From NCBI RefSeq assembly GCF_018977255.1, contig NW_024704743.1, positions 4,280,001 through 4,344,000 of the forward strand: 64,000 nucleotides of DNA, in the 5' to 3' direction. Made by a program: the position numbers and the translations under genes. Below are positions 16,641-56,119 of the stretch, one piece after another. The notes under the pieces are model-generated. The model was not told the origin of the DNA, made no database searches, and saw nothing but the letters and a program-made list of their open reading frames with translations. The first letter of the stretch is position 1; each line of letters starts with the position of its first letter. This DNA is from Callorhinchus milii. Its lineage: Eukaryota.

Positions 16641-16644
16641 AGAG

Positions 16645-19103: not shown

Positions 19104-19660
19104 TTAGGAGTCAAGCTTAACAATCACCTTGTCATCTTCACCGCTTTCTATTCTCTCAGTAGCATAGTGATAGAGTGACTTTAAAGTTTCTTTCAACTTG
19201 TGCAGTTTATCCAGTGTGTCCTCTTCATTATTTAATTCAGATTTCCAGGATTCCTTTGCATCATCTGAAGACGACAGCTTCTCGATATCATGTTGTTTCT
19301 GTTTTTCCCTTAATATCCTCTCGGTTTCTTCTTCGTGTCTTATGATGTTCAACAACTTATCATTTTTTTGATCAATCGCTTCCTTTACTTCTATTTCTTT
19401 ACCACCCAACTGTAAGTTCTGATTCAGATTTTCAATACCCATTTCCGGTGATCCCAGTGTGACATTAACAGCATGTACGTCTGGTTTATGAACTTGTTCG
19501 TATTTATCTAGCAAGCTGTGGGCTCCATTGTTCTGTTTTTGTCGTTCAAGTTCATCTCGCCCAGGGAGTGATGAAACTGCACCAGCTTTGATGGCCTTCA
19601 TTTGTTGAACAATTCTCTCTTTATCAAGTGAGAGTTGATTTTTTTCGATTTCTTTTGTGT
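19104..19660 (-). CDS. LRRC37-like exon 8 (terminal, charged / coiled-coil-like tail)
   Basis: tttcccacag acceptor, phase 1, in frame with ORF 19104..19601 (YTKEIEKNQLSLDKERIVQQMKAIK...VIVKLDS*). Minus-strand AATAAA at 18979-18984. Confidence 0.8.
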
Positions 19661-20048
19661 CTGTGGGAAATAATCATAACGTTCATTAAAAGTGTACATT
19701 CCAGGTAGAGAACCTTGAGAAGATCTATATTTTTTTTACCCAGAGAGTTGTTGCAGTCTGAAACGCACTGCCTGAAAGGGTGGTGGAGGCAGATTTGATA
19801 GTAGCTTTCATAAGGGAATCAGATAGGCTTAAAAAGGAAAAACTTGCGGGGATATGGGGTAACAGCGGAGGAGTGGGGTGGGACTGGTTGGTAGCTCTTT
19901 CAAAGAGCTGGCACAGGCATGATGGGCCAAGTGGCCTCCTTCTGTGCTGTAAGATTCTATGATTTTACTCAAAAAAAACTTGTTTCATGCATAACAATCA
20001 ATTAATATTTAAAATAATAACCTGATCAACAGAAGTAATGATACTTAC

Positions 20049-20173
20049 AACACTGAATCAATGTCACGGTACAGTAAATATTCTTGCAGTTAATCTCCAC
20101 TTTCCGTGGCAGAATAAGATGGTTCAGAAGTGGAAACTTGCATAAGCAGCATTTCAGAGTGTGGGATATATAA
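20049..20173 (-). CDS. LRRC37-like exon 7 (Cys-rich C-terminal cap)
   Basis: ctgcag|..YISHTLKCCLCKFPLLNHLILPRKVEINCKNIYCTVTLIQC|gtaagt, phase 2-1; CCLC motif and Cys spacing as in LRRC37 (ILPSHMACCLCQF...LHCNSACLTNTTHC). Confidence 0.9.
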
Positions 20174-23100
20174 CTGCAGAATGGAAAACAAATAAGAATC
20201 TAGTGACAATAGTTAGAATAGACAAGAAACCTTGAAACATTTATCAAAATCAATCCTGGACTTGTTTGAACATGAAAAATATCTGAAATCATATTTTACA
20301 TTTGGATTTTATTACAACATTTTGAAAAAGTGTTTGTTATGCAGCAGTCCAAATATGAGGACACCATATCCATAATATGCTCAAAAACCTCAAGCTTCCA
20401 GAAGAGTGAGCATTTGTCTGTGTCAGCTTCCAGATGCTTGCAGATATAACATTTAATGGTAACTGAAACAAAGTTTTGAAACACGGGTTTAATATTAATA
20501 ATAATATTTGCATTTCTGTTGGAAAATAATATCTCGCGATACAATATATAGTTTGGGACACTATGTGTCAGGCCACGACCAGGATTAGTGGGTGGCGAAC
20601 TGGATCGCCTAGCAAATTCTTATGTGCTTACGTTCATGTTACGTTATGTTGTTGTTATGCCGTTGTTGTTGTTTTTGCTGTTCATTTCATACAGCGCTTT
20701 AGCATGTCTTTAAAACACTGCTTTGTGACGGTCAGGGAAGAATGTTTTTTTTATTCTTTTCAGAATGACCCCAGAATTGACGGCACTGCCCAGGATGTTA
20801 TCAAGAGCAGCGGTCAGGAATGAAGAAACATTTTCCGCCTTGGGACACCTAATGTCGGTTTAGAGCACTGACAGGTCAAATCGCTAGAGGGGTAAGGTAC
20901 CTTCTACTTTCCACCAACGACACTGATTCTTAGAAGGGTGCACCAGTGCAATTGTCCTATCCCACACAGCTCTCATTGTGGCCTTTCTTTGTGAAAGTGG
21001 CAATTAATGCCAGCTCGTGGAGCATCTAGTCACTGGAATGAGATTCTCCAAATATATCTGCATAAATACTTCACAGGAACCGGAAACTAAACCGTATCCT
21101 TAAAATGAAATATGAGCACTCTAATCCAATCCCACACACAATTCGTCTTTTTTGAGTGTTCTGAATACAGATATTTCTCTATACTTAAGTCTGAAAAACC
21201 CTCAGCTAGTTTTGAACTGCCAGTTTGCACATACCTGATTGGACACATAAAATGATTTATCTTCAAAAAGCACCAAATACTACAGAAACAGAAGGATGCA
21301 AATCAACTGTATAATAAATCATTGAGGGAGGGCGCCTCAACGTGCTTCACAGAAATTACTGGTAAGTAAATGTATATTTGTAAGTGAAATGCGGCAACCA
21401 ATTTGTGCATAGGAATGTCCCACAAACGGCCATGAAATGAAATGTATATACGTGGATGTGAAATCTGTATATGATAATTATTTTAATTGTTTTTTCTCAT
21501 ATGTTTAGGTGTGTATATCTTCAACTTCTTGTGACATCTCCCATTCGAGTTGGCAGTGCAAAGGAGATTTGTTCAATAAGCTTTTCAATCAGATTCATGT
21601 CTGTAAAGGAATTTACATAAACACAACAAAAGTATATTGCTGTCCCATGGGAAGAAATAGTGCCAAGGTTTCACTGACCTTGGATTCACTCAATCAAAAA
21701 TGGTTATTCAACCATTAAAAAATACAAATGTGAAGAAATACTCAAGTGGCTCATTTATAACAAAAGTAACTATTAGTAAAAAATATGGTCACTCAATCCA
21801 GTGTTGGATACTGCTGCGTGCAATTGGTTGCCACGTTTCGCCCACAAAATATAGTCACCACACTTTACAGCATATTAAATGAAGTGCTTTGAGATGTCTC
21901 GAAGACGTGATGAGGCGCTATATAAAATGCAAGGATTATTATTATTATAGGTAAATGGTCATAATTGCAAATGAGACAGTCCCAACAGTATAATGATTCT
22001 TAATAGGGAATAGAGAAGGTTTGTTTGCCACAGAATAAGAAAATGAAATATACTTCTGTTTCTAAAATTATCCGCTGCATGATCCAGTTCTGTACAAAAT
22101 GAGAGGCTGATAAAAGAGTGTAGACAGTGTTTTCCCATATATAAACACACTGCTAAAAACACACTAACATTCAGATGACAGAATTTATGTTCTAAGTTGC
22201 AAGCATGAAATAAAATAATAATAATCCTTGCATTTGATATAGCGCTTTTCACGTCTTCTAGATGTCTCAAAGCACTTCACAGAATATGCTGTAAAGTGAG
22301 TTAAGTAAATAAAGTAAATAAAGGCAGCATGGTGGATTAGTTGAAACAGGTAGGTTTCAGGCTGGAGCTAAAGACAGATAGTGAGGAGACAAGCGAGCTC
22401 TAGAGTTTGGAGGTGTAGACTCTGAAAGGCTTGGCCATCGATGCAGGCACAGAGACGGTGGGGAATGTGCAGCAAGCCCAAGTTAGCCAAACGGAGGGTG
22501 CAAGCAAAGTGAGATAGGAGAAAATCAGAGAGATAGGCAGGTGTCCAGGGGACAAAGGGATTTATAGGTAATGCAGTACTACAAATCTGAGGAGTTTGAT
22601 TTGCCCTCACAAAGAGGAAGCGGTGATACTGGAATCAGAGATCACTTGAGACCTTGGTCACTAGGCTTTCCCTGCCAGAGGCATGATCCAGTCACCCGAC
22701 ATGGTCAGGTCCTCATTGTCCTTTGACAATTTGGGGCCTAGAAGAGTATGGGGGAATTGGGGCTTGTTTGCAGAGACAACCCTCATTTCCAAAGTGGAAT
22801 GTTTTGGTCTAATTCGGTCAATAATAATAATATTTCTTGCATTTGACATAGTGCCTTATCACATCTTCGAGACGTCTCAAACTCTTTACAGAATATGCTA
22901 TAAACTGAATTGACTGCAGATTTTGTGGCCGAAAGGCGGCAGCCAATTGCGCACAGCAGTATCCCACAAATAGTCATGGATTGAGTGACCAATTTATTTT
23001 TATTTACTTTGAAGGAATTATTATTACTCCCGGACCCTGGAAAAGCGATCTGCCAATCGACTAAAATCCAGGAGGGGGGAGCAGGTCTAACCTCACTCAC

Positions 23101-25147
23101 CAATAAAAAAAATGAAGGAATTTCTAAGTGAGGGTGAGTACCTTGAAATTGATTCTTATAACCACGATGACAGAGCCAAGCTAACACGCAACAGGTTAGA
23201 TATTGATTCTAGATTTGATTTAATGCTAATAAATGTAACTAGGATAAAGGTGTCAACGTGTCACCATCAGAACAGATTGCTAAATTATATCAATTTAAAG
23301 TTAAAAATAATACAAATAGGAAAGATTGAGAAGCCAGGGGAGCACAGTATTTTTGTTTAATATGTTGTTTTGCTTTGTTTTTATCTATAAAGCAATTTAA
23401 TGGGTTATAGAAGTGCAAGTTTGTTATTGTTTATATATTCTGCAGTAATCTATGGAGTTAAAGGTTTCAGAAAAAACACTTGGTTGTAAATTTGAGGTGA
23501 TGGAGCAGATAAGGATTCATTGCTCAAGTGTGTAAAGTGAATGGTGCATTACTGTATTAACTAATATTCAAATGATGATAGACTTTCTACCAAGATATTT
23601 TACAAAAACATTCCACCTCACAAAATATAGATGCTTCTACAGCTACTGAACCATGGTCACCTCAGGCCTTGATTCCTGTATATGGCCTTGTGAGCAATTT
23701 TGAGGTTATGTATCGAGAACATAAACAAGTAAGAACATGCCACCCCTTCCTTTTGATCAGTATCTTTGTAACTGAGCCTGTAAATGAGGAAGCCACCTCT
23801 CTTGCAGCTTCCTCATTTTACCAGCCAGAGGATATGCTGGGGACTATTGGTACCTTGTTTATAGAATAGCTGTTTAGTGATGGCTCCCTTTAAACAAAAT
23901 GAATGAAGCATCAGATTGGGACAATTGACGTAAACTGAAATATGGTTTCAAAACATTTTATAAAACATTTTATGCTCAAGGTAAACAAACAGACAGTAAA
24001 GGAATTTCAGATTGAGCAGTTGTACGGTCACTATCGAACAAATGCCATGGCAAGTGGTAGCACTGTTTTGAGCGCAGAAAAATATGATTATTTTGTAGAT
24101 GCAGAACAGTAATAAATTATACAAGTGTAATAAGGAATGAAATATGCATTAATCAAAAGATACCAATAATAAGGATCATATAGAACTGGGATGATGTGAT
24201 GATGCAACGTGTTTGTTGGGGAGGATGGGCAGATTTTTTTCTTCACTGTATTTAAAATCTCAGGCACATTTCTGCAGGAAAATCAAGCAGTGGTCAGATC
24301 TGACCTTGGAGAGACAGAGTCATTCTCAGATAGCTGTTGAAAACATTCTGGGGCATCTTAAAATTGAAAGCAAGCAGCAATCCACCTCAAACCTCCTTTC
24401 TAAGTCACAGCTGTTGGATGATCAGGGTGCGCAGAGAAATGAATACTCTCCCAACAGTTACAAAACAACAGGGAACTCGGAAATTGCTGGTTCAACTAAA
24501 AATACAGATATCCACAATAACAACAACAACAAAATTGCATTTGCATAACGCCTTTCACGTCAGGAGGCCGTCCCATATATAAATATAAATTCAAAATATA
24601 AATGTTGTTATATAAATGCAAGTTGTTGTTGTTTGCTGTTAATGTAAGGATTTAAGTTGTTGTACAAATACTGCGAGTGACTTCTATTTAGTGATATATT
24701 GCCAATTACCTATTACCCAGATAGTCGACGCGTTTGATATTGTGACATCATAAGCATCAACAAAATTCGTATAAATTAGATATTGTTTAGCCAATACAAA
24801 ATTACCACCTCAATTCATAAATATTATATATAATAACCTTTATCAAGTGATTCCATGGTAATATATGACTCATGTATATTTATCGATCTACTAGATCAGT
24901 GTACTCAACATTTAATCAACCCGGGAAATACTTCATACCTCGGTCAATCGTAACAAACACATACTTAAACATTCACAATTTAGAAACATTTGGCAATGTA
25001 TACAGGTAGACAATATACAGCGTCCCTGCACTCCATCCAGCCTCGAAGGGCCCTATATAAATGCAAGTTGTTGTTGTTGACAAAAGATACAATGCATTAT
25101 AACATATTTTCATGTAGTATCCAATAATTCGTAATAAATATACTTAC

Positions 25148-25222
25148 AGGTTAACAATATTTGTTGTGCTCTGCAAAATAGCTCTGAGAACATCAAGAGA
25201 AATGGAAGTTGCACGAAGGTCC
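25148..25222 (-). CDS. LRRC37-like exon 6 (75-nt last LRR)
   Basis: ttttag|..(L)DLRATSISLDVLRAILQSTTNIVNL|gtaagt; parallels LRRC37 [25 protein letters not shown]. Confidence 0.88.
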
Positions 25223-27219
25223 CTAAAAGAAAACAAAAGTGCATTACACTTTTACAGATAGAATTATTTTCGAATTTTGATAACGGGTTATAAGTAACGT
25301 GTGAAATATTAGCCCAGAGCTTGGCTCTGTCAAAAGTTCTCCTGAGTTTAGCACACAATAGCAGTTTCAACACAGCTTCCCACTACATTTTCTCTTTATT
25401 TCCAGTTTCTCCGCAACTAAGATTTTGAAGTAAAGGTGTTACTCCTACTCACCTCTCTATGTATTAGTGCTCCAACATGCAACGCTAACTTGTCAGAATT
25501 TTAGTTTTAAAGTGAAACGCCATGAAAATACATTATTAAATGCAGTAATCTGGTTCTCTCAAGGACAATTTTCTGGAGCAGTTTGGAATTTAGCCTTGCA
25601 ATTCAACTTGCAAAATTAGAATTCATCCAATCTCTTCTTTTTTAATTAATTTCTCTGCATAGCAATGGGCCGCCAGGTTGTTTTTCCCCAATGCTTTTTC
25701 ACAATTTTCCCACATCAAAACAAAATGACAGATGGGCAATGTCTTGGAAACAACAACAAAATTACATTTGTAAAGTGCCTTTCACGTGGGGAGGACATCC
25801 CAGGGTGCTGAACAGTTAGAGATCAGGACCCGAGCGTGGGTGGCAGGGTTGGGATGAGGCAGAGCAGGGGGGGTAGGAGGGCAGCTGAAGGCACGGCCAA
25901 AAAGGAGAGTCTTGAGTCGTGCCTTGAAGGAAGCAAGAGAGGGAGCGAGGCGAAGGAAGAGATGGAGATTGTGGGATGGAGTTCCAAAGAGTGGGGGCAG
26001 AGAGGCTGAAAGCCCGGCCACCAATGGTAGACCAGGAGCAGGCCAGAGACCGCTGAACGGAGGTTGATAGGGGGTCAGCAGGTCAGAGATGTAGGAGGGG
26101 GCAAAGCTGTGGAGGGCCTTGAAAGTGAGGACGAGGATTTTGAATTCTATCCTCTGAGGGATGGGGAGCCAGTGGAGCCGGGCGAGGGTGAGGATGATCG
26201 GGTTCACGGAGCCTGTTCACAAGGAGGGAGTTTCTGTAGTCAAGCCTTGAGGTGACAAATGCATGTATGAAACTACCAGATAGAAAAATGTAAGAACTGG
26301 AATGGAATATTTTTGTTAGCTTTGCTGTATTGCAGCTTACATACACACAATATAGCCACATATTTAGAATACACTGCATGGTCATTCCGAAGTCATTATA
26401 AATATATGTAACAAAGTGAACTAATTAATCAAGGATTCATCTAGTTCATGGGCACAGCTTATCCGAACCTAAGGGGCAATCAAAGAGGTAGGTCGAGATA
26501 GACCTTGAAAGAGGTGAGGGAAGGGAGACTCTGGGATGGAGTTCCAGAGAGCGGGGGCAGAGAGTGGAGGCCGATGGTGGGGTGAGTAGGGCGGGGGACG
26601 TGAGGCAGGTGATGCCCTCTGAGCGAAGGGATTGGTTAGATCAACAACAACAAAAAAATTACATTTATAGAGCGCCTTTCATGTCGGGAGGACGTCCCAA
26701 AGATCAGTACGGTTTCAGGAGCTCACAGAGGTAGGGCACCATAAGATCATGGAGGGATTTAACTATTCTATAACAATATCGATTCCCTAAAACAGCACTG
26801 CCCAAGCAATTACATTTGATTGAAACTCCTCTATTCACAGGACTGTTTCAAGAGTCACTGATCTTTCGCACTATGGCTGACTGAACCTGATGCCGATTGG
26901 CTTGTGAAAGAAACCCAAAAGCAAACAAGTGAGAAAACAAGAACAACTTGAATTTGTATAGCGCCTTTCACGTCGAGAGGGCATCCCAAAGCAAAGCAGC
27001 ACACACCCAGCAGAGCACTGGAGTGTCAGCTTAGATCATATGAGCTCAAGGTCCTGACGTGGAACTTACACCCTTCTAACGCCAAAGTAACAAGCAATCA
27101 AAAGAATAGCAAAAAAAAACCTAAAAACATACTTTTGGTAATTAATGGCAAAATAAATACATCAATTGCCTCTGTACATTTCATTTTCATCAGTAGTATA
27201 ATAGCTGGAATATACTTAC

Positions 27220-27291
27220 AAGTAGATGATTGAAGACAGGTGTTGAAAAGCTCCATTACCTATTAAGCTTAAATAATTATCACTTATATTC
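27220..27291 (-). CDS. LRRC37-like exon 5 (72-nt LRR)
   Basis: ttttag|..NISDNYLSLIGNGAFQHLSSIIYL|gtaagt, phase 2-2. Confidence 0.9.
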
Positions 27292-27997
27292 CTAAAAGAG
27301 AAAGGGTAAATTGTTAAAAAAAACTATACATATTTTTCTCAATAGGATATATAAATAGGCTGTAAATGTTTTTTCAGAGTTCTGTGGGCACAGCTTTTGT
27401 ACAATGATTCTGTTTCTGCCTGCATTTATTAGCATCTAATTAAAAGTACTTCCTATAAACAAAATGCTGAATTAACATAACAAAAGCTGAGCTCTTTAAT
27501 TTAGTTAAATCTAATCTATTTGATTTCTATTGAAAATCACGTGAAACAAAGGACTTGTGATTTTTGTATCACTTTATTGCATCAAAAACAAGGAATTCAC
27601 AAATTCTATTTTGAAAGCAAACAGAATCAAACAAGGGTGCTACAAAAGCCAGGCCAACAGACAGACAGAAACTCCCTTCTTTTCAAATAGCATCACGGGC
27701 TATTTGATACTGAGCTGAAGAACAAACAAAGCCTTAGTTCACGACTCAAATGAAGGACAACACCTCCAACAATGTAGCACTGCACAGGACTGCATTGGTT
27801 TACGACAAACTGTGCACTAGGGTCTTGACGTGGATTTTGAACCCAATGGCAAGAGTGCCACCAAATGAGCCAAGCTGGCACATGTTACCAATAAGCAAAT
27901 ATGAGTTAAAAATCTGGATTTATTTAGGTGTGTTTTTACGTGAGGCACTTATGCATTTAGCTTCACAACTCGCTTTAACTAAAAGAAAAATACTCAC

Positions 27998-28069
27998 ATG
28001 AAATGCAAGTTTGTTAGCTGACTGAATGCACTAGGCCCTAGTACCAATATATCATTACTGCTCAAATCC
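27998..28069 (-). CDS. LRRC37-like exon 4 (72-nt LRR)
   Basis: caacag|..(L)DLSSNDILVLGPSAFSQLTNLHF(M)|gtgagt, phase 2-2. Confidence 0.9.
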
Positions 28070-29216
28070 CTGTTGAAAAATACAGAAATATACAACTTGT
28101 TACTCAATGTGCACATGAAATCTTGTTCACATAAAAAAGACAAAAGCTGGAAATGCACAGGTTAATCAGCATCTGAAAGAGGACGATAACTAATTTTAGT
28201 GTTACCCTTCAGGTTCAGATTTCCAATATAGTGGAAACATTGTTGAGATGACAATTACAGTCTTATCACAATTGGCATAAAAATACTTGCAAATCAATGT
28301 CAAATATATAGATATTATTAGTTCCCCAATTGTTTGTTCTGTTTTTATTTGCAATGCTTCCATTATTTTATTTTTATTTTCTGGAATAATAAAAAAAATC
28401 CTTGCATTTGATATCGTACGTTTTCCATCAGGAGCACGACTCAAACGTTTCACAGGATTTATTGTGAAGTGCTGTGACTGTATATTATGTAGGCAAACAT
28501 AGAAACTGATTTGCACACAGCAATGTCCCACAAATAGCAACGAAGTGAATGCTCAATTTTATTTGGGGGATTGTTGGTTAGGACACTGGGGTTAACTCCC
28601 TTCTCTTTTCTATTTTTTTAAAACTGAATCTGGGTTCAAAGTCTCATCCAAAGGACAGCCCCTCCAGCAATGCTACGCATCCCCAGTACCGCACTGGAGG
28701 ATCAGCCTAGATTTATATGAGTTCAAAGTCCACAACCTTCTGACTCGGAGGTAAAAATTTTATTATCTGAGTTAGGCCGAGACTTGTGTAGGAATTAAGA
28801 GTGTTTCAAAAGATCCTAGCAACCAATATGTAGAAGAACAAAATCCTTCAAATCCAGTCGTTAACGCTCCTTCAATTTGATTGATGTCACATAACAGCTA
28901 GTCAAGATATACAACAGAACAACCCTTCCCTTTTGACATGTTTTAAAGAGGGAGGGCCACACAGTACAAATATAATCGCAAGGTACAACATGTAGGAAGT
29001 AAGAATAGGAAACACATGTACTCCGATGGATGAAATAGAAGTTGCCAAGAAGGAAGTGGAAATAGATCTAAGGGTGTGAGCTGACTCATCATTCAGCATA
29101 TCAAAACATCAACTTGCATTTTATATTGCGCCCTTCACCCGAGGTAGCGTCTCTCAGTGCTCAATAAAATGATGTACTGCAAACTGCCATGAAATCACCA
29201 TTTTTATCAAGAGATT

Positions 29217-29527
29217 ATAATAATAATCCTTGCATTTGATATAGCGCTTTTCACGTCTTCTTGACATCTCAAAGCGCTTCACAGAATACACTGTAAAGTG
29301 AATTGACCGTATATTTGTGGGCGAACGCGACAGCCAATTGCGCACAGCAGCGTCCCCACAAACAGTCGCGGATTGAAAATGCCCAATTTATTATTGTTCT
29401 GTTTTGGAGGGATTATTATTGGGCGTGTGGAGTAAGGAAACTTGCCCAAGATTTCACCCTGCTGGGAATTGAACCCAGGTGTCTTGCTTGCAAGGCGAGT
29501 GCTCTAACCACTGAGCTACAGGACTCC
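29217..29527 (-). mobile_element. Full-length tRNA-derived SINE
   Basis: Same family motifs. Confidence 0.88.
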
Positions 29528-31824
29528 ACACCTATCGTCACCATATAGTCACCTCACAGAAAGTTTGGCAAAGAATTTTGTCCCATTTTGACATGATAAG
29601 ATGCTATGTCAAATGTAAAGATCATTATTCTGAACTACATGTCACTGGTCAGCCTACACTTGATAAGCTGCTTGCATTTGGGCACTCTGTCCAAAAAGTG
29701 TTGAGTTTGAAATGTTCAAGGAAGAACAATGAGAATGATTCTTGCAAGCTGAGAAAGTGAAATTTATATTTGTGAATGAAAAAAGTAGACCGAGTTTGAA
29801 AAGTGGGTTGGTGAAGAACATTTTGGAAGCTTTGCTTGCCTGCTAGCTTTTTTCGTTGATTGTATTATATATTTTATATTGGTAGGCAAATGTATCAGCC
29901 AATTTCTGCACAGGAATGTGTCACAAGCAGCCATAAAGTTAATTACAACCTTTTTATAATGTACAGAATTGTCAGCCAGGTCACCAGGAGCAACTCCCTC
30001 CTCCTAGAATAATTTATCTTGAGTTATAGTTAAATGTAGCCTATTATTGGATTAACTGTTGACAGCAATTTCACATTGACTGTAAACCTTCATTGAATGA
30101 TCAACCAACCAACCCAATTCACTACTACAGTTTATGAATATGTTCAAAAATTAAATCAAACTTGAATCAATGAATTTGTGTCTTAAGAGTGTGAAAACAT
30201 TTTTAATAGTGCTCTTTTTGATCTATTTGATATGTTGCCTCTTTACAAGTCTGAGGAGAATCTGTCAACCATTAGGAGGACCCACCAGCTGAAAGCTCAG
30301 TTTGTATACTGGATGCAGTAACATATCAATTGTAGTGTAATTGGAAGCTGGCACCAAAGCCTCTGCAGCCTCCAACTACAGCCAGCCAAACCCCACTCTG
30401 TGATGAAATATTGTCATGTCACTCACTGCCCATTTGGGTGAGACCAGACCACAATTTTACCGAAATTTTAAATGGATGGACAAGCTCTGGCCAAAATCTT
30501 TCACTTGAATGCTTTTCATGTATGGCGGAAGTGATGGAGAGCCAGCATCTGTCTATTATGGCTGACGTGCCATTATATCTTTTTGACTCAGCTCGTATAG
30601 TGAATCAACATTTGATCCAGTAACATCTATGGTCTTTTTACTCCTGCTGTTCAATAACATATTAATTGTATTAGACTCAGGATCTCTTGAGTGCTTCCAT
30701 TCACCAGACATCTCATCTTCATATAAATCGTCATTGGGCTGCTCCTCAGAAATCACTGACTTCCTTGCTTTGCAGACTCTAAATCTGGAAGAATTAGCTG
30801 CAGAGACATGAAAGAATTAACTTTGTTAATTAACTTTGAACTACACAGGTAGTGAAAAGTATTTGAGCAATATAACTTTGCCAGAAGATAAAGAAACAGC
30901 AATTGCTTATGGACAATGAATACTCTGCACCAGATTTGCATGAGTACAATAAATACTATTGATAAAGATATTAAAGTAATGGAAAAAAATGATTGTTTCT
31001 TGTAATTAGTATATATTTTTAAAAGATTACTTACCTACCTGGGTAGGTTTTTTTCTCATTCTTCAAGTAGAGGTATTCTCCACACACTGAAGCAGTTTGT
31101 TGGGATCGGACAATTCTGCTGCAGGGAAAAAAGGAACAATGTCCTTCTTTAGATGTTTCTGACATCGATGACATCATGGCATTAGGACGTTGCCCATCCA
31201 ATTTTCCCTGCTCTCACTCATTATAAACGTTGCACTCCAACTCGAGGACCTCAGTTCATTTCGACCTGGACCTCAAAGAGGAAGAAAAAGGGGAATAATA
31301 CTGGATTATACTAACAAGGGACTGAGGTGAAAGCAAGGTGGAGGTCCAGTGCGTGAAGGATGGCTCTCTTTGAAGAATGAAGAAAACTCTTTCAAGTACA
31401 CAATCCCTTTTTGATCCCCAGCATCCTCCACACACTACAGGTGACGTCACAGATTGACCAAGTTGTGCAATTGAGAAGTGAGTCGATGACAGACGAACTT
31501 GGGGAATTATCTGTTGTGTTGTCCTTCAGGATCAGCGTAGAGACTTGTTATTCCTGCACTATCAATACTGTGTCTTGACAGAGGACGATGGAAGCTTGCT
31601 CCCGTCTTATTCATTCATATCACCTAAAAAATGAGCTATTCAGTACAGATAAAGGCCAGTACTTCTATGACAGATATTTCTTCTCTTCCCCTCATGCAAA
31701 AGGGGGAATCGATTACAGTAGATCTTCGAAGGTTACAGTGCCAATCTGCTGTTCCCTTTCAGACCTTCATCAGCTCTTAATTAAATGCATATTATAAAAT
31801 ACCTTTATAAAAAATTGGTCTTTA

Positions 31825-32390
31825 TAAAACACTGGTTAGGCCTCAGCTAGAGTACTGTGTTCAGTTTTGGGTAACACACTTTAGGAAGGATGTCAAGGCA
31901 TTGGAGAGGGTGCAAAGGAGACTTACCAGGATGATACCAGGAATGAGGAACTTCATTTATCAGGAGAGGCGAGAGAAGCTGGAATTATTCTCCTTGGAGC
32001 AGAGAAGGTTAAGAAGAAACTTAATAGAAGTTTTCAAAATTATGAGGGGATTCGATAGGGTGAACAAGGAGAAATTATTTCCACTGGCGGGTGGGTCGGT
32101 AACTCAAGGAAACCGATTTAAATAGTTGTTAAAAGAAACAGAGGGGAGGTGAGGAGACATTTTTTCACACAGTGAGTTGTTCGGATCTGGAATGCATGGC
32201 CTGAAAGGGCGGTGGAAGCCGATTCGATAACAACTTTTAAGAGAGAAGTAGATAATTATTTGCGGAGGACAAGTTTGCAGGGCTGTGGGGAGAGAGCCGG
32301 GGAGTGGGATTGAATTGGATAGCTCTTTTCAAAGAGCTGGCACAGCCACAATGAGCCAAATAGCCTCCTTCTGTGTGTATAATTCTATAT
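31825..32390 (+). mobile_element. CR1-type LINE 3' fragment; other CR1 debris at about 19735-19965, 33880-34380, 35720-36120 (-), 44480-45310, 62640-63050
   Basis: ERVQRRLTRMIPGMR...LELFSLEQRRLRRNLIEVFKIMRGFDRV is typical of the CR1 ORF2 C-terminus. Confidence 0.85.
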
Positions 32391-35300: not shown

Positions 35301-38300
35301 AATGCACCAAGAACATCTCCAGTTCAGTCCAGAGCCAGGACAGAGCAAGCTGATCTCAGCCAGGGTGGAAGTAGGGACCTCCATACATGGCTTCATATTC
35401 TCAGGCAAGACAGAGGGTGTAATGACAGATTTCACATTTCTAATAGGACAAGACACCAGAGGACTGTGGTAGTTTATAGCTTGACCACTGCCATGAGTCA
35501 CTGCTGTCAGGAGAGGACATTGGGAAAAATTAATAAATATATAGTGCATTGATATATATAAATAGTGCAGGTTACTCACAAGACTTTCAGCTTCAGTAAT
35601 CCATGCTTTGTCTGAAAAAGATCCCTTTGTATTGCAAACAATCTGTTGTTGCTTACATCACTTTAAGAAAAAGGATAGATTTTAATATGCAGCCTTTTGT
35701 ACAAGTAATTTTACTGTATTTCATAGAATCTTACAGCGCAGAAGGAGGCCATTTGTCCCATCGTGCCTGTGCCGGCTTTTTGAAAGAGCTATCCAACTAG
35801 TCCCACTCCCTCGCTGTTACCCTATATACCTGCAAATGTTTCCGTTTCAAGTACCTATCCAATTCCCTTTTGAAAGCTACTATCGAATCTGCTTCCACCA
35901 GCCTTTCAGGCAGTGCATTTCAGATCGTAACAACTCTGTGGGTAAAAAAAATTCTTCTCTTTTTTTNAGCAAATTATCTTAAATCTGCATCCTCTGGTTG
36001 CCGACCAATTTTTCCCACATAATTTAGAACACTTCTATTAAATCTCCCCTTAATCTTCTCTGCTCTAAGGAGAACAATCCCAGCCATTCTCATCTCTCCA
36101 CATAATTTAAGTCCCTCATCCAAGGTATTTTTAGTGTTTCAACTAAACTTACATAAGTTCAATTTCAGGAGTGTTCTGGAACATATAGTCTGCAATAAAT
36201 CTGATCCGATTATGAGATAAAAACCTGTGAGATAAGAAAAAGCGTGACGGAGTATATATTCTATGACGTTAACCTTCGCCCTACTGAGTAAACAGGAAAA
36301 TTAGCTAAATAAACAATGCAGTTAGAGTTTTAACATTAGCCTTCAATTCAAGCCTGAAAACCAAAAGTATTCTCATTTTAATTTTTTTTTAGCAGCACTG
36401 TAACCGTTTGAAATGACTTCCCGGGATAATAATGATCCTTGCAATTGATATTGGACCTATACAATGTCAAAACATACCAAATCACTTTATAGGGGATTGG
36501 TATCGTAACTCTATCCTTGCAGATGAAGATGGCAGCCAATTAGTATACAGCCATGTCCCAGCAATAACCAACAACAACAATAAGATTACGTTTGTACAGC
36601 GCCTTTCACGTCGGGAGGACATTCCAAGGCGCTGGACAGTGTACAGCATTTCAGACCCGAGCTGAGGTCGGGGGGGAGGAAGGGAGGGGAGGGGAAGGGA
36701 GGGTGGCTGATGGCATGGTCGAAGAGGAGGGTCTTGAGGTAGGACTTGAAGGAGGCTAAAGAGGGGGCGAGGCGGAGTGATTGGGGGATGGAATTCCAAA
36801 GGTTGGGGGCAGAGTGTCTGAAGGCTCTCCCGCCAATGGTGGGGCGGGTGACCAATTCTCATCTGGCAGCTTGTTTGGCAAGGACACTGGGAGAAGCTCT
36901 TTTTGATTATCAACATTAGGTCTCTAATACCTATTTTAACAGATAGACAGGACCTCAGATTAAAATCCCATCCAAATGATGGCACCTTTCAATAAGGTAG
37001 CAGCCTCCCAATGTCAGCTTGGACTATGAAGTCAAAGTCCTGATATGGATGTTGAACCTACTGTCCCAGATGTGAAAGTGCTACCAACTAATGAACTGAT
37101 AACACAAGTTCATAAAACTCTGTACAGATGATTTTTGAAAATCAATTTATTCATTTTTTAAATGAGAAAAACCCCCAAATCATTGCTACATCATAGTTTA
37201 CAAATGAACATTACATAAACACTTGACACTGCTCAGGATCTGTGAAATGGATTGCAACTGCAGGGAGGGAGGGCTCCGGCCTGCAGTGGCTTCAAAGCTG
37301 GCATGTATATTTGCCAAAGCCCCTCACATAAAGACTTGGATTAAGCAGCTGGTGCTGAGTAAACCCAGTTGGTACACAACATTGGACTTGGACCTTGAGA
37401 ACATCAAGGTGACTGGCACACCTGTAAATGTCTTCCCACCACATTGAAGACAGATGTCCGTCAGATAGCTGATGAGGAAATTCTGAGGCTTGGGATGACA
37501 GCTGTTGGAAAACATTACCTGGAGTTCATTCAGATATACAGGGCTTGGAATCCACCTTGATTGGTATGCAAAGTGGTAAGCAGTTGCTGCTCAAGCTGCG
37601 CACCCCCGATCACTCAATGGGTAGGGATGTCTGTCCAAGCTCTTACACATTTCATGCTGAGCTGTGCAAGGAGTTTCTAGTACCTGCCATCTACCAACTG
37701 CAGGCTCAAAACTGTGCTTGTTGATGTTAAATGACCTACTGGTGACTCTTCTCCGTGGGGAGCGGGGAGAGAGGTAAGCAGGATCTCCTTGGCACTAGCG
37801 CTGAACTGGCTCAAGGGTGTCATGCTTTGCAACAGAATGTCAAATAATAATAATATAATAATCCTTGTATTTCATATAGCGAGATGTCTCACAAAATATA
37901 CCGTAAAGTTTATTTTGTGGGCGAAAGGCGGTAGCCAATTGCGCAAAGCAATGCCTCACAAACAGTTGTGGATTATTTTTGTTTTGAAGGAATTATTACC
38001 AGTTCAAGTAAATTTTCTGTTCCTGTCTCACTTGTCCATCCTGAGGCAAAAGGGTCCACAGTACTCCAGGTCACTGCAGATGACATCCAGCCAGCCTGGC
38101 TTATCAGTAGAACTTGGAGGGACAGATCAGTTACTGGCGGCAAGGATTCTTCCCACTCAGCTCGTTAATTACGGAAGCCAAAGCCTAACAAGCGGAGTGA
38201 TCCTAACTGATAAGCAGCAAGAAAGTTTGCCAGATGGTGCTTTCAAGGGCAAGCTATGTGGTTTTTCCTGCTTAAACTTCAACACTACCCCAACACGCAC

Positions 38301-39303
38301 TCTGGTATCCTCAAACCTTGGCTCTTCACAGTTTATGATCAATATTCTCTGGAATCAAATAAACAGGGTGTGTCCCTCCAGGGATAGAGCCCAAATTCCA
38401 TTCCAATACATGGGAATTTCCATGTGTAGGTGGGATGCAAGTTTGATCAAACTGGGTTTGATTTGGATATTCGTAGGCAGGGTGATGGGATTTCCAAATG
38501 CGTCAGACACAAAATAGACCATCATGGTTCCTCTTCTCTGAACCCTCTCTATTATTTCAACGCCTTTTGAAAATAGGGATCTCAAAATTATACAATTCCA
38601 ATTGGAGGCTCACGTGTGATTTATTCCAGGTTAGAATAACTTTTCACAACATATGTAGTCAAAATGTAACCTAATATTTGATTAGCTTAATACAATAATC
38701 ACACCTCAGTACCTTCTGTGCACACCCACCAGAAACTCTGCAAACTCCAGATTTGGAGAAAATACTTTGAGGTAAATCACACAATGAAAGAATGGAGATA
38801 ATTCACATATGTTAGTTGTGTAAGTGGAGTCAATAGAGTAAAATGTAACTAAAGTTCTAAAATGCAGGATTAACATATTTGAGCGCAAATATAATATGAC
38901 AAACATTAAAGATAAAACACAAATCATGAGATAATTTTGGCCTGCGAAAGGGCTGATACTGGCCTGAATAAAATGATGTACTGTATTTGGTATAATCAAA
39001 TTGTGCCTGGGATTATTCCTGCACTGCTGTAGCTTTGATACAATTTGAGAAATATTACATCTATATCAATCCAAGAAAAATGAAAAATGAAATTCAGATA
39101 TTAGTATCTCTGCCTTTCATTCTTCAGGTAAGTTTTACTTTAGTTTGCTTTTTATTTGGAACCTAATTTTTTGGGCCTCATATCAGCTGTACCTATCTAG
39201 TTGCAAAGCAAACCAAATCTCAGAAATCTTTTTAATCGTTCACTTATACAAATCAGAATACTAAACTTAAACATGAAAATAGTAAATAAAACAGGAAACT
39301 TAC

Positions 39304-39375
39304 AAGTATTTCAATTGTGAAAGACCTTCGAAGGTTTCAGGAATCAGATCCGTTATATGGTTCCCTTTTAAATTT
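39304..39375 (-). CDS. LRRC37-like exon 3 (72-nt LRR)
   Basis: ttcag|..(L)NLKGNHITDLIPETFEGLSQLKYL|gtaagt, phase 2-2. Confidence 0.9.
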
Positions 39376-40029
39376 CTGAAAGTACAGACATTTCATAAAT
39401 ATGTATGGACCTTAAGCTGTTCAACATGAGGGGTTTTAGTCAAACTAATAAAAGCTTTAAAATCACCTGTGGACGAGGTAAGAAGTCTAAACCTTTACTC
39501 CACAAAGCTACTTGTCACCACAATATGTAGGAGTTGGAGATAGAGGGAAAGGTGAATTACTGGAGATGTTTGGGTCAAAGAGGAAAGGATTTATCCTCTT
39601 CGAACCCATTGCCATTGACTTCCTCGTACTAGAGTTTCCAAGATTTGCTTTTGATGGAATAGAGAACAGTGAAAATGCCTGGGATGAGTTATTCAGGTGG
39701 AAGATTAATTAACAACTTTACAACTTTTAACTGAACAATTTGAAAAATAGCAATGATGGGCAAAAAATATCTGCTTGTAAGACTGACTGGACAATCACTT
39801 GTCACTCATGCATTTTGGTCAGTTTCATTCGTGAAGTGTTTATATTGCTAGTTATTATATTATATGGCCACAGGGATGTGCTTTCCAGTTTTGTAATACG
39901 TCAGCTCCGTAATCTTGACCATTCACATATCTGTAGTGCTCACAAATATAATGAGCGCAAGAGAGATAAAAAAAAAGTGGAACAGATCAAGTAAGGAAAA
40001 AGACACCGGCCTCTGTGATGAGGCTAAAG

Positions 40030-43200: not shown

Positions 43201-45562
43201 ACATTTGAATTTGTCTGTGACACTGCCCTCTACGTATCCAACATCCTCCTATAAATATATATCTCCTCCCAAGCAAGTCTCGTTGCAATGGAAGGGTCTA
43301 TACAACTTTAGACAATTGCTAAGTACTTTTCAAATGAAACAATGAGAACAACAACAACAAATTACATTTGTAAAGTGTATTTCACGTCGGGAGGATGTCC
43401 CAAGGTGTTGGACAGTCAGGGATTTGGACCAGAGCTGGGGATTGGGATCAGGACAGGTGAAGGGCAAGGAGAAAGATGTACATCACACATGTCCTTTTTT
43501 TCCGATGACCACATATTTGCAGAAGTCTCTGTCTAAAGTTATGCCGTGCATGAAATACAATCAGTGCATTTTAAATCATAAACAATAGCTTGCACCCTTC
43601 ACGCAGAATAGCATCTCAGAGCACTACACTGTGGTGGAACTGCATGCTGAGCAAGGGAGAAGGTTTGACCTTAAGTGTTTGTAATCAGTGGAGGAAGAGA
43701 GAAGCTTGGCTGGGCTAGCTCCAAGGTAACATGTCTTGTCTTAATTGAATCGACCCTCTGTGGCAGTCTTAGTAATCCAACTTCTGAACCAGGCAAGTCC
43801 GCAAGCCACTACTGATGACAGACCAGCAAACCTGGCTCATTGATTGAACTTGGAGAAACAGGCAAGTGGGCAGTAATTCTTCCCACTCAAGTCCTCTTAA
43901 TTCTACAAGCTAAAACGTGGTCCTAGCTGGATAAGCAGTGGGGAGCTTACCAGACAGTGCTCGCAATGCCAAGCCACACGATTTTAGCTGGTTAAACCTC
44001 AACTGTATTCCAATGCACAATCTGGGATGCCCAAATCTTGGCTCTTGTCAACCTGTGCAAAATACTCTCTGAAATTAGCAAAACAGTGTGTGTCCCTCCA
44101 GAGAGGGAGAGAGAAACCATATTCTATTCCAGACACAGGTATCACATTATGTCAATTTCTGTCCTCCTTTAACATCCAATCATTCACTTTCCAGCAGGTT
44201 TAGAAATTGGAACCCTTGTTGAAGGGCAATAAGAACAAATGTAACATCACTGCAGGTGAGATAAGCTAACTCAGCCCAGGACACTGGTCAAATCTAGTTA
44301 ATTTCAAGTCTATATTATTCAATTTCACAATTGACAGTTGCTTCATGTTTTATGCTCCAAGTTGTGTTCAGGCTCATATACTTAGACTTCTCAAAGTGCA
44401 GAAGGGGCAATGTAGTACTTTGATCAACTTAGGACTTATTTCAAACACTGCTTTATTTTTGCATATTACATCAATATGTTAATAGATATGAGGTGTTACA
44501 TTTGGGAGAACAAGAGAAAATATATGTTAAATGGTAAACTAAAAGAAGTGGAACAGCTAAGGCACAAGGGATGAATGTACACACATGTTTAACGGTGGGA
44601 GAGCATATTGAAAAATAAATGAAATCCTGGTTACATAGATATTATGAAAGCAAAGGAATTATGCTAAACATCCATAAATCATTTGTAAGGCCACAGTTGG
44701 AATAATATGTCTACTTTGGACACTCCACTACAGCAATGATTTCAAGGCCAGAGACTCGAGGAAGTGGAGCTGTTTTTCATGAAACTGAGTGGGTTGACAG
44801 GAGATCTGATCAAGGTTTTGAAATTAATAGAATTTTTTAACAAAGTAAATAGAGAACAATTATTTCACCTGATTTCCACAAATGTAATGTAATTACCAAA
44901 ATGACAAAGGGAGAGATTAGTAGATTTAGGGGGTAATATTTCCTTAAAAAAAATTGATTACTCAATCCACGACTATTTGTGGGATTGCTGTGCAGAATTA
45001 GCTGCCGCGTTTCGCCCACAAAATATACAGTCAATTCACTTTACAGTATATTCTGTGAAGTGCTTTGAGACGTCTCAAAGATGTGAAAAGGCGCTATATC
45101 AAATGCAAGGATTATTATTTAGTTTTTTTTGTATGAGGGTTATTAGGACATGGTATACCCTACCTAGAATGGAGGTTGAAGCAGACTCCATATAAACTTT
45201 TTTAAGAGGGAATTAGATAAATATCTGAAAAGGAGAAATATAACAAGAGATGAAGAAAGAGCAGAAAAATGTGACTAAATGGATAGCTCCATGTACAATT
45301 GGTCAAATGACCTCCTTTTCTGTGGCAAATGTGTATGGTCCTACAGTTGATGCTACAAGCAAAGTGTAACAATTGTATTTTTGAATTGTAAATATGATTT
45401 AAGAGTTAATGTGAAACATAATGCACATTAATTATGTATTTTTATTGGTAACTATGTTCTATATAACTATAATCAAAGGCTTATATTTGGCCAACAGAAA
45501 ATGATATATAGCTTTTGCTAATGAATGATTTAAATACTGGTGCAACTCACAATCATACTTAC

Positions 45563-45634
45563 AGATATTCAGTCATTGTAAAGAAAATCCAGTTGTTTTT
45601 CCATATAAATGATATGTTATTATCTCGAAAATCC
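45563..45634 (-). CDS. LRRC37-like exon 2 (72-nt LRR)
   Basis: tttag|..(L)DFRDNNISFIWKNNWIFFTMTEYL|gtaagt, phase 2-2; similar to LRRC37 [25 protein letters not shown]. Confidence 0.9.
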
Positions 45635-47733
45635 CTAAAACAAATGGAAATAAAATATGTACTGTAAAACATTATATAGACTAAACATTAAGCATATAGA
45701 AACGATAGCTAAGATAGTCACCATCATAATTTTAAAAATGTCACATTATAATCTTAAAGCTATTATAGATATCTGAAAGAATATTTAATATTATAACTTG
45801 GCTTTAAAAAACTAAATTCTGATAAGTTCAATACAATTTCATATTTTTTAAGAAACCTTTTCAATATTTAAGATTTGTCTCCCAATCTTCCCCCATTCAC
45901 CCATCCTTCTCTGAAAGTCATCATAACTTATGCTGGGATACAGTTCTGTACCTGCTGGAAATCATTCAGATTGTGCCAAAGTAGTCTTTATATTTGAGAC
46001 CAGTCAATGAGTAATTATAGTATCAAGCTGTTCCGGTCATTAATTACCCTTTGAGTAAAGAAAACAACCCGGTATCTGGCCTGAAATTGTCCTTTACTAC
46101 TCTAAACCCATGTCCTCTTGTTTTACAGTCTTATTGCATTCCAAAGTATTGATCAGGATTTACTTTTTCAATCCCATTTAAAATGTTTATCCCTCAATGC
46201 ATTGTCTTCTCTCAAGAGCCCTAGTTTTATCTTATCAGTAAAGCATAGGAAGTCTGCTAGTTAGATCCAGGACCCAGTGTACCACACTTCTGGTTAACAA
46301 GGCAGCTCTAAATTGAAGGATGCCGTGCCACAACAGGGTTCCCCTTTACCAACTTGTAAGTCAAGCTGTGTAGTGACAGAAGATGTTTCTGGCTTCAGAC
46401 ATCAACCTGTCCGCTCCCTCTATTTGGCTATCCTCTCTGCCCTCCACCCTCCCCAATCCCAAACCCCTACCACCCCCCAGCTCGGATCCTAATGGCCCTG
46501 ACTGTTCAACGTTGGGACGTCCTCCCGACATGAAAGGCTCTTTACAAATGTAATTTTGTATTGTATTGTATCATCACCTTCTAAGGTAAAGTCAAACATC
46601 CACCTACAACTACAATTTCAGTAAATTCTGTGAAGCTCTTTGAGACAACTTCTTGACATGAAATGCAACTACCATTAATGATCACTTTACTCAAAGGCTC
46701 CTCTTGCAGCCAAGAAAAATTTTGAGGTGACAAGTTGAGCACCAGAAGATGATCATCCTCAATGAGTGACAGATCAAAAGGAAAAGCATCATAAGGTCAA
46801 TGCTGTCATTCTGTCAGGACAGCAGTGGTCCTGGAGTTGAGGGTAGAAGCGGAGAAATAGAGTTGGGTGTCATCCGCATACAAGTGAAATTGTATTTCTT
46901 ACAATACAAATTTACATTTTTATAACGCCTTTTACGTTAGGAGACCCTTGACAATTCTAGCATGGTACCCGAGCTGGGGGGGGGCAGGTTGGGGAGAGGT
47001 GGGGTGGAAACACGACCAAAGGGTTGTTCATTGGTTGGGGAGTTTTGACCTGTCCCCGATTTCCGGTCCAGGTTGAGGTATTGTGTCCCTGATCAAATCT
47101 GCCCTGTCTTGAGTTCAGTAATTTTCTGGGTTATGGGGCAAGTGGGGTGGAGTGGGTTTAGCTATATAAATGCAAGTTGTTGTCGTTCATGTTTTCATGT
47201 TTCAAATTGGCTGAGCGCAATCGGCTGCTGTGTTTCACCCAGAGTACACAGTCACTGCACTTTACGGTATATTCCGTGAAGCGCTTTGAGACGTCTCGAA
47301 GACGTGATGAGGCTCTGTATCAAATTGCAAGGATTACTATCAGGTCAGGCAGGATCGATCTATGGAGAAAACGAGTCAACGTTTCGGGTCCACAAACTCT
47401 CCTGACGAAGAGTCGAGGACCCGAAACGTTGACTCGCTTTCCTTTCTCCATAGACGCTGCCTGACCGGCGAGTGTCCCCCAGCCACTTTTTTTTGTTTTC
47501 GTTCCAGATTTCCAGCATCTGCAGTATTTTGCGTTTTGCAAAGATTATTATTATACATTGTATTACATATATATATATATGTGCCAGGATTTGGTTTACA
47601 AGATAATACAGTCACCATTTGTGGGAGAGTGGGGGGGAAACAGATCTATTAATACTTATACGTATACACACACACACACACATATATGCATAGCCATGTA
47701 CACGCGCGTGCGTAAAAGGCAACGCAAACGTAC

Positions 47734-48119
47734 AACACAGTGAAGGCCGTCAACACGTTGCCCAGCATGGTGCCCCTGGGTCCCTCGGGGATGCGGGTCA
47801 GCATCGCGGAGCCCGTGGCGTTGGACTGCGTGTCGTTGCGCTGCGACTTGCCGTGCTGCTTGCTCGGGGGCGGCTGGCCGGCCCCGGCCCCGGCCCGGTC
47901 CCCCTTGCTGTCGTGCACGTGCGAGCCCAGCGGCTTCTCGGGGTGGCACGACAGGATGTTGATGTAGCAGCGGCACACGGCCGGGCAGGCGGCCGGCGTC
48001 GAGTTGCTCTGGTGCAGCACCACGAACGTCTTCTTGGCCTCGCCGCCCGAGGCGGCCAGCAGGCAGGCCAGGAGCCAGGCGGCCGCGACGGATCCCCTCC
48101 TCATGGTCGCCGTCACCAT
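47734..48119 (-). CDS. LRRC37-like protein exon 1: signal peptide plus LRRNT cap
   Basis: MVTATMRRGSVAAAWLLACLLAASGGEA (signal-like), then CPAVCRCYINILSC...LTRIP...FTVL, resembling the LRRC37 LRRNT (CELCTC...LSC...LRQVP...FTTL). Two in-frame ATGs in good Kozak context (48119, 48104). Phase-2 donor TT|gtacgt. Lies in a CpG island. Confidence 0.85.

Positions 48120-53069: not shown

Positions 53070-53333
<264 letters not shown>

Positions 53334-53722: not shown

Positions 53723-53959
<237 letters not shown>

Positions 53960-54295: not shown

Positions 54296-54754
<459 letters not shown>

Positions 54755-55795: not shown

Positions 55796-56119
<324 letters not shown>

What the first reader, a model, noticed from the sequence alone, without database searches (positions are those of the whole stretch)
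19104..48119. Intact LRRC37-like gene between IDI1 and WDR37 in a probable cartilaginous fish
Seen in sequence: eight exons with canonical GT-AG sites join in one frame (386+72+72+72+72+75+125+557 = 1431 nt, 476 aa plus stop). The ORF track shows only the first and last of them. Established: the exon-by-exon motifs (LRRNT ending FTxL, xFxxNxISxI..W....TExL, the D(M/L)xxT last repeat, the CCLC cap) follow LRRC37A/B. That family is best known from mammalian/primate expansions on human 17q, while IDI1 and WDR37 are head-to-head neighbours in human. Inference: this may be an ancestral or lineage-specific locus for the family in a basal jawed vertebrate, transcribed divergently from IDI1 across one extended CpG-rich region.
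Basis: partly seen in the sequence, partly recalled or inferred. Interest (0 to 1): 0.75.

Follow-up and report, generated by a model that had tools for sequence, protein, structure and literature searches.

The report
Anchor-less LRRC37 relative in elephant shark
A real ten-exon elephant-shark gene, already listed in RefSeq as LRRC37B-like, encodes a leucine-rich-repeat protein with no membrane anchor that sharks, rays, coelacanth and sturgeons also have, and is likely a soluble, sperm-associated relative of the mammalian LRRC37 genes.

Summary
The gene is real but has ten coding exons, not eight: 1584 nt, 527 aa, identical to RefSeq XP_007899394.1 'LRRC37B-like X1' of Callorhinchus milii. 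It lies between WDR37 and IDI1 as claimed. Relatives occur in 19 cartilaginous fishes, coelacanth, three sturgeons and paddlefish and form one clade. All 22 tested lack a transmembrane segment, and 6 of 6 lack both LRRC37 Pfam domains. Its exon plan matches the published LRRC37 plan with one extra repeat exon. No amniote LRRC37 sequence could be retrieved, so membership is not tree-tested. A 2026 preprint already reports LRRC37A homologues in cartilaginous fishes. A sturgeon protein of the same length and mass as one orthologue is in a published sperm proteome, so the protein is likely secreted or acrosomal. Open and not found in print: whether IDI1-WDR37 is the ancestral LRRC37 locus or holds a lost sister duplicate, and whether the gene tracks the acrosome rather than internal fertilisation. 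Annotated gene, modest interest.

The parts
47734..48119 (-). Exon 1 (386 nt): ATG, hydrophobic signal-peptide-like N-terminus, 4-Cys LRR N-cap, ~45-aa variable insert, start of LRR1
   Evidence: insert 11-33% identical among sharks and rays, absent in sturgeons
45563..45634 (-). Exon 2 (72 nt, phase 2-2), LRR
39304..39375 (-). Exon 3 (72 nt), LRR
   Evidence: Pfam LRR_8 E 6e-4 alone
36153..36224 (-). Exon 4 (72 nt), LRR; skipped in RefSeq X2 and X3
35580..35660 (-).
   Evidence: the same lengthened repeat is in coelacanth, sturgeon and paddlefish
27998..28069 (-). Exon 6 (72 nt), LRR
27220..27291 (-). Exon 7 (72 nt), LRR
25148..25222 (-). Exon 8 (75 nt), degenerate last full repeat (Thr at the Asn position), predicted helical
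20049..20173 (-). Exon 9 (125 nt, phase 2-1): truncated final repeat and six-cysteine C-cap (CCxC-x17-C-x4-C-x6-C)
   Evidence: six Cys invariant in 13 of 13 aligned proteins; junction to exon 10 in a contig of run X2
19104..19660 (-). Exon 10 (557 nt coding): charged, predicted helical tail, no transmembrane segment, TAA stop; poly(A)-signal hexamers follow at 19066-18984
8162..8299 (-). Neighbour: probable first coding exon of WDR37 (same strand, downstream)
   Evidence: found with a recalled motif, identity not database-checked
53190..56119 (+). Neighbour: IDI1 coding exons (divergent)
   Evidence: NUDIX
61993..62093 (-). Neighbour: GTPBP4/NOG1 exon
   Evidence: NOGCT, 50.3 bits, cut-off 27
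50459..50884 (.). 76-bp tandem repeat, 5.7 copies, each with a palindromic CRE-like site, in the shared upstream region

Best explanation
This is an intact ten-exon gene for a 527-residue leucine-rich-repeat protein that has no membrane anchor and is conserved from chimaera to coelacanth and sturgeon; it is likely a soluble early-branching relative of LRRC37 that is likely made in male germ cells and would work in or on the sperm acrosome. Shown: exon structure, seven repeat exons between Cys caps, no transmembrane segment, one clade across 24 species, one spliced junction. Inferred: the N-terminal hydrophobic stretch is a signal peptide that sends the protein through ER and Golgi into the acrosome lumen or onto the sperm head. 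There the conserved repeat face would bind the extracellular or luminal part of a membrane protein, as mouse LRRC37A is reported to do with Na/K-ATPase alpha subunits. The poorly conserved helical tail would stand in for the membrane anchor by self-association. Skipping of in-frame repeat exons would vary the length of the binding face. Whether it is the direct orthologue (about 0.4) or a sister duplicate (about 0.45) of mammalian LRRC37 is open.
For: Gene. Clade of 21 sampled proteins at 100/99 support against 12 generic LRR proteins, with batoids and acipenseriforms grouping as expected. Repeats and caps are 69-83% identical within cartilaginous fishes and 44-57% to bony fishes; the tail is 25-45% and 2-11%. 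No 19-residue window above Kyte-Doolittle 1.26 after the cap in 22 of 22 proteins. Exon plan as published for LRRC37 (PMC3530683 section 4 and passages): signal peptide in exon 1, each LxxLxLxxNxL split by an intron, truncated last repeat, frame-shifting cap exon, long exon after it. The supplement of a Siberian sturgeon sperm proteome (PMC11291920) lists XP_034769890.1 'LRRC37A-like', 286 aa, 32.237 kDa; P0224 of this clade is an A. ruthenus record of 286 aa and 32.237 kDa (a match by length and mass, the accession numbers differ). Mouse Lrrc37 genes are testis-only; LRRC37A is acrosomal, needed for male fertility and co-precipitates with ATP1A1/ATP1A4 (preprint 10.64898/2026.09.11.751093). 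Mammals also make predicted anchor-less short isoforms.
Against: No amniote LRRC37 sequence came back from any of four searches, so the family link rests on database names, exon plan and recall, not on an alignment. Pfam LRRC37 and LRRC37AB_C are absent in 6 of 6 proteins. 16 of 24 species' records carry other names or none (LGR4-like, LRRTM1-like, LRRC70-like, artichoke-like, uncharacterized). ESM-Atlas feature hits were osteomodulin/decorin-like secreted LRRs, and an LRRC37AB_C cluster ranked only 4th of 10 by structure, TM 0.67, no better than the others. No tissue is known for the elephant-shark runs; several RNA-like runs hold the last exon, which could mean wider expression. The promoter sits in a CpG-rich region next to a housekeeping gene. 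No partner is shown. Heptad regularity in residues 428-472 is weak (at most 0.42 hydrophobic at a/d; 0.62 in 486-514), and the AlphaFold model is poor (pLDDT 42).
Confidence: 0.52

Rival explanations
1. Hidden paralogue: the IDI1-WDR37 gene is a whole-genome-duplication sister of LRRC37, kept in cartilaginous fishes, coelacanth and sturgeons and lost in tetrapods and neopterygians, while the true membrane-anchored LRRC37 orthologue lies elsewhere in the shark genome. This is compatible with a sperm function but changes the evolutionary reading.
For: The sturgeon paper lists a second record, KAK1159025.1 'LRRC37A3-like' of A. oxyrinchus, which is not among the 4 members of the 90% cluster of this clade's sturgeon protein. 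Coelacanth keeps 54% identity over the core, yet no tetrapod, lungfish, gar or teleost protein with this cap was among the best 150 of 1.84 billion representatives. The 23 of 24 species with a contig length all have the gene on contigs of 97.7-494.5 Mb. Recalled, not tested: human 10p and 17q21 are sister segments of the vertebrate duplications (ARHGAP12/ARHGAP27, MAP3K8/MAP3K14, VIM/GFAP), and the 17q21 segment corresponds to a microchromosome in birds and non-teleost fishes.
Against: KAK1159025.1 could not be fetched and may be a differently modelled copy from the sturgeon-specific duplication. The list ended at 149 bits, crowded by giant LRR proteins; a paddlefish isoform at 41-47% identity scored 159, so relatives under about 40% would be missed. 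A paper search for the 10p/17q21 pairing gave no direct source (listing only).
Confidence: 0.45
2. Direct orthologue at the ancestral locus: LRRC37 began as a soluble seven-repeat protein between IDI1 and WDR37, and on the tetrapod or amniote stem it moved to the 17q21-type locus, lost one repeat exon and gained the long first exon, the C-terminal domain and the transmembrane helix.
For: One such gene per species was found (apart from sturgeon duplicates); all 5 bony-fish records are named LRRC37A-like; the family is known to relocate by duplication and to capture new promoters (PMC3530683, PMC3371713 passages); the preprint's 10-sequence tree treats cartilaginous-fish proteins as LRRC37A homologues (species and accessions not visible in the text).
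Against: It needs a move, a repeat loss and a domain gain on one stem. The mammalian ancestral locus is at 17q21. The searches were too insensitive to exclude a second shark gene. Neighbours in other species could not be read.
Confidence: 0.4
3. An unrelated secreted LRR protein (small proteoglycan-like matrix protein, or a released LGR-type ectodomain acting as a ligand trap) that only resembles LRRC37 through generic repeats.
For: Atlas feature hits are osteomodulin, tsukushi and decorin at 0.94-0.95. LGR4/LGR5 fill many top PDB ranks. Three species' records are named LGR4-like. A truncated repeat followed by CC at the same spacing occurs in P0138 (a 7TM-bearing LRR protein) and P0039/40/61.
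Against: Those matches cover only the repeats. A profile of the last repeat plus cap gave at most 7.4 bits on 309 non-family proteins, and the CC-bearing ones were not in the top 25. The cap fits the common CF1 spacing CxC-x17-C-x11-C plus two extra Cys as well as it fits the GPCR-type CF3 (definitions in PMC4561518). Atlas feature counts of 144-156 are below the ~170 typical of same-family hits.
Confidence: 0.13

Closest known systems
RefSeq XP_007899394.1 / 396.1 / 397.1, 'LRRC37B-like' X1-X3, Callorhinchus milii
   Same: Identical proteins: this is the annotated gene.
   Different: None. The name is an automatic similarity label, and orthologues in 16 of 24 species carry other labels or none.
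Mammalian LRRC37A/LRRC37B (human 1700 and 947 aa; PMC3530683, PMC10754148)
   Same: Signal peptide in exon 1; one repeat per exon, with the motif split by each intron; N- and C-caps; truncated last repeat; frame-shifting cap exon followed by a long exon; variable repeat-exon skipping.
   Different: Seven repeat exons instead of six; exon 1 is 386 nt instead of 1690-2612; no Pfam LRRC37 or LRRC37AB_C; no transmembrane helix or cytoplasmic tail; locus between IDI1 and WDR37 instead of 17q21.
Coelacanth XP_014346966 'LRRC37A3-like' and sturgeon/paddlefish 'LRRC37A-like' proteins
   Same: 45-54% identity over the 225-aa core, same seven repeats, lengthened fourth repeat and six-Cys cap, no anchor; one clade.
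   Different: Unrelated, often shorter tails; N-cap insert short or absent.
LGR4/LGR5 and other LGR ectodomains; small secreted LRR proteoglycans
   Same: Typical extracellular repeats at about 27-33% identity; CC after a truncated repeat in LGR-type caps.
   Different: No 7TM domain, fewer repeats, cap profile does not match.

Membership tests
LRRC37 (mammalian A/B) | Signal peptide encoded by exon 1 | tested here: met
   The most hydrophobic window is residues 10-28 (KD 1.46); hydropathy only, no dedicated predictor was run.
LRRC37 (mammalian A/B) | [quoted passage not shown] | tested here: met
   All eight phase-2 introns fall inside the motif; feature from PMC3530683. Shared with other one-repeat-per-exon genes (recalled), so not unique.
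LRRC37 (mammalian A/B) | Six LRRs in six repeat exons (exons 2-7) | tested here: not met
   Seven repeat exons here and seven repeats in coelacanth and sturgeon.
LRRC37 (mammalian A/B) | Truncated final LRR and LRR-CT on one exon whose skipping shifts the frame | tested here: met
   Exon 9 is 125 nt, phase 2 to 1; feature.
LRRC37 (mammalian A/B) | Single transmembrane helix and short cytoplasmic tail | tested here: not met
   0 of 22 proteins have a hydrophobic window above 1.26 after the cap; no donor-consensus site was found in the last exon, and hydrophobic frames downstream are repeat-derived bar one.
LRRC37 (mammalian A/B) | Pfam LRRC37 (PF15779) and LRRC37AB_C (PF14914) domains | tested here: not met
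   Neither appears at E<=0.1 in 6 of 6 proteins.
LRRC37 (mammalian A/B) | Reciprocal best hit or one clade with amniote LRRC37 | not testable with these tools
   No amniote LRRC37 sequence was returned; database names are only an indirect sign (8 of 24).
LRRC37 (mammalian A/B) | Synteny with the 17q21 ancestral locus | tested here: not met
   Neighbours are WDR37, IDI1 and GTPBP4; mammalian locus; the placing of these neighbours on human 10p15 is recalled.
LRRC37 (mammalian A/B) | Testis/sperm expression | tested here: inconclusive
   Tissue of the elephant-shark runs is not given; a sturgeon orthologue matched by length and mass is in a sperm proteome.
LGR receptors | 7TM domain after a CF3-type cap | tested here: not met
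   No transmembrane segment; cap profile does not find LGR-type caps.

The most novel reading that the evidence does not exclude
The IDI1-WDR37 gene defines an unrecognised, anchor-less sister branch of LRRC37 dating from the vertebrate genome duplications. It is kept in lineages whose sperm have an acrosome, including externally fertilising sturgeons and paddlefish, and lost where the acrosome was lost. That would contradict the preprint's link of LRRC37A to internal fertilisation and give a compact model protein for what the LRRC37 repeat domain binds.
Probability: 0.25. Interest if true: 0.55.

Novelty: new variant of a known kind. Interest (0 to 1): 0.32.

Why it matters
The ligand and original job of the LRRC37 repeat domain are unresolved in the mammalian papers read here. 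A 300-530-residue soluble version conserved across jawed vertebrates is an easier handle than the 1000-1700-residue duplicated primate proteins. Its presence in sturgeons and paddlefish, which fertilise externally and (for sturgeon, per PMC11291920) have an acrosome, points to the acrosome rather than internal fertilisation as the common factor. Against this, the gene is already annotated and the deep age of the family is already stated in a preprint, so the gain is a refinement: one mislabelled orthologue group, no anchor, a different locus.

Tried and rejected
Own-genome search: no genome is held, so a second LRRC37-like gene in this species could not be looked for. Three word-indexed protein searches and one full HMMER scan gave no amniote LRRC37; this is a sensitivity limit and no evidence of absence. 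One search covered only 915-2610 aa and returned generic LRR proteins. AlphaFold model at pLDDT 42, so no fold search was run. ESM Atlas and PDB sequence searches gave only generic LRR matches. LGR-ectodomain origin was considered because of the CC cap and was not supported. A candidate 81/84-nt exon at 31118-31035 has good splice sites but no LRR motif and is not in RefSeq X1-X3; left out. No listed run is on record as RNA, so tissue and level are unknown; 6 of 7 junctions in the laid stretch were not displayed, which is no evidence against them. Literature searches: LRRC37+shark, 5 papers, none on topic by listing; IDI1+WDR37+LRRC37, 0; LRRC37+WDR37, 1 unrelated; LRRC37A+acrosome+teleost, 1; paralogon search and acrosome-distribution search gave no usable source. 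Supplements of PMC3530683 and of the bioRxiv preprint could not be read (preprint supplements are closed); exon sizes, alignments and the preprint's accessions may be there. Earlier scan findings: none. Rfam: six tRNA-like matches only.
Full report
Observation. Ten exons (386, 72, 72, 72, 81, 72, 72, 75, 125, 557 nt) join into one 1584-nt frame of 527 codons plus stop, with canonical sites throughout; the first eight introns are phase 2 and the last is phase 1. The filter finds 7 repeat exons on the coding strand, none on the other, and 0.01 on average in 100 shuffles. A search with the last exon returned one protein, 100% identical, named 'LRRC37B-like isoform X2' of Callorhinchus milii. Its cluster holds X1 (527 aa), X2 (503 aa) and X3 (476 aa). 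X1 equals my ten-exon model, X2 lacks exon 4, X3 lacks exons 4 and 5.

Transcription. No run holding the last exon is on record as RNA; eight holders are guessed to be RNA. Laying contigs of four runs on 19500-39499 showed one contig of X2 stepping from 19660 to 20049, the exon 9-10 junction. In X4, exon 9 and exon 7 positions have the same depth, 66.7, against about 4-8 for listed intronic contigs, which fits one spliced contig but was not displayed as such. X9 covers introns in long pieces, as DNA would. The other six junctions in range were not shown because repeats filled the table. A 507-aa skate-like protein with all repeats was called on a 2976-base Logan contig (P0004), which implies a spliced full-length transcript in that animal (inference). 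Tissue is unknown.

Surroundings. IDI1 exons lie on the plus strand at 53.2-56.1 kb and a GTPBP4 exon on the minus strand at 62.0 kb. A WDR37-like first coding exon lies on the minus strand at 8299-8162 (recalled motif). The gene is thus divergent from IDI1 and in tandem with WDR37. The intervening 47-54 kb is GC-rich but broken into CpG-rich patches, and about 3.75 kb separate the start codons (IDI1 start read by eye near 51874), so a shared bidirectional promoter is possible but not shown. A 76-bp repeat with a CRE palindrome in each unit sits between them.

Protein. Signal-peptide-like N-terminus, four-Cys N-cap with a variable insert, seven repeats (the fourth lengthened by three residues, the seventh degenerate), a truncated repeat, a six-Cys cap and a 184-residue charged tail. 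Pfam finds only LRR families. There is no transmembrane segment here or in 21 relatives. AlphaFold was uninformative (pLDDT 42) beyond long helices at 430-472 and 488-514.

Distribution. Named relatives come from 19 cartilaginous fishes and from Latimeria, Acipenser oxyrinchus, A. ruthenus, Huso huso and Polyodon spathula. Core identity is 54% to coelacanth and 45-46% to sturgeons and paddlefish; the best unrelated proteins score 94 bits or less against about 200-460 for full-length members. In a tree of 21 family cores (one per species; Chiloscyllium punctatum, Hypanus and Amblyraja left out) and 12 generic LRR stretches, the family is one clade at 100/99 (outgroup branches are long). Only 8 of 24 species' records are named LRRC37-like. 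No tetrapod, lungfish, gar or teleost member was seen, but the full scan's list stopped at 149 bits, so relatives under about 40% identity would be hidden.

Comparison with LRRC37. I read section 4 and passages of PMC3530683, passages of PMC10754148, PMC3371713, PMC2235866 and PMC4561518, passages and supplement rows of PMC11291920, and passages plus the Discussion of preprint 10.64898/2026.09.11.751093 (29, 34, 80). The published LRRC37 plan matches in signal exon, motif-splitting introns, truncated last repeat and frame-shifting cap exon. It differs in repeat number (six against seven), first-exon size, the C-terminal domain, the transmembrane helix and the locus. Because defining features were tested and not met, I do not file it as an LRRC37 member; I call it an LRRC37-like, anchor-less relative, with about 0.85 odds of true kinship.

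Function. Mouse Lrrc37 genes are testis-only. [quoted passage not shown] The sturgeon sperm proteome lists an A. ruthenus 'LRRC37A-like' protein of 286 aa and 32.237 kDa, the same length and mass as P0224 of this clade. The best-supported mechanism is therefore a soluble secretory-pathway protein of the sperm head whose repeat face binds a membrane partner; location, partner and the role of the tail are inferred. Sturgeons and paddlefish fertilise externally (recalled), which does not fit the preprint's 'internally fertilizing' framing and suggests the acrosome as the common factor; the absence of acrosomes in gar, bowfin and teleosts is recalled, except for the sturgeon-teleost contrast.

Orthologue or sister copy. 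The mammalian ancestral locus is at 17q21. All 23 species with a contig length have the gene on a 97.7-494.5 Mb contig, a second sturgeon record named LRRC37A3-like falls outside this clade's 90% cluster, and human 10p and 17q21 are, from memory, sister segments of the vertebrate genome duplications. Neither could be tested, because no vertebrate genomes are reachable with these tools. I found no paper joining LRRC37 to IDI1 or WDR37 or discussing a shark LRRC37 locus; subscription journals and unread supplements are not covered.

Verdict. A real, annotated gene; family resemblance plausible and partly in print; the anchor-less architecture, the locus and the possible acrosome link are modest new points. 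Interest 0.32.

Noticed in passing
window 50459-50884: 76-bp tandem repeat, 5.7 copies, each with a full CRE palindrome: 6 of the window's 7 such sites (0.53 expected by shuffling, but the copies are one amplified unit). It lies 2.3 kb upstream of the LRR gene's ATG and about 1 kb upstream of IDI1. CREM-driven spermatid expression is a recalled possibility.
   Followed up: partly
PMC11291920 supplement file 4; proteins P0118/P0222-P0224: A second sturgeon record, KAK1159025.1 'LRRC37A3-like' (337 MS/MS counts), is not in the 90% cluster of this clade's sturgeon protein: possibly a second LRRC37-like gene.
   Followed up: partly
window 31035-31118, minus strand (intron 5): Open 81/84-nt segment with strong splice sites and the right phase but no LRR motif; not in RefSeq X1-X3.
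   Followed up: no
P0001-P0028, P0182, P0225-P0227: Database isoforms across species skip different in-frame repeat exons, in one Pristis model five in a row; mammalian LRRC37 transcripts do likewise.
   Followed up: partly
window 2204-2266, 5509-5580, 11766-11830, 18100-18155, 29454-29525, 61546-61608: Six tRNA-like Rfam matches inside recurring interspersed repeats, probably tRNA-derived SINE heads; the same repeats dominate read depth.
   Followed up: no
window 14800-17660 and 51320-51740: Long low-complexity (CA/TG and C-rich) tandem arrays flank the probable WDR37 and IDI1 first exons.
   Followed up: no
window 35967: Single N in intron 4.
   Followed up: no
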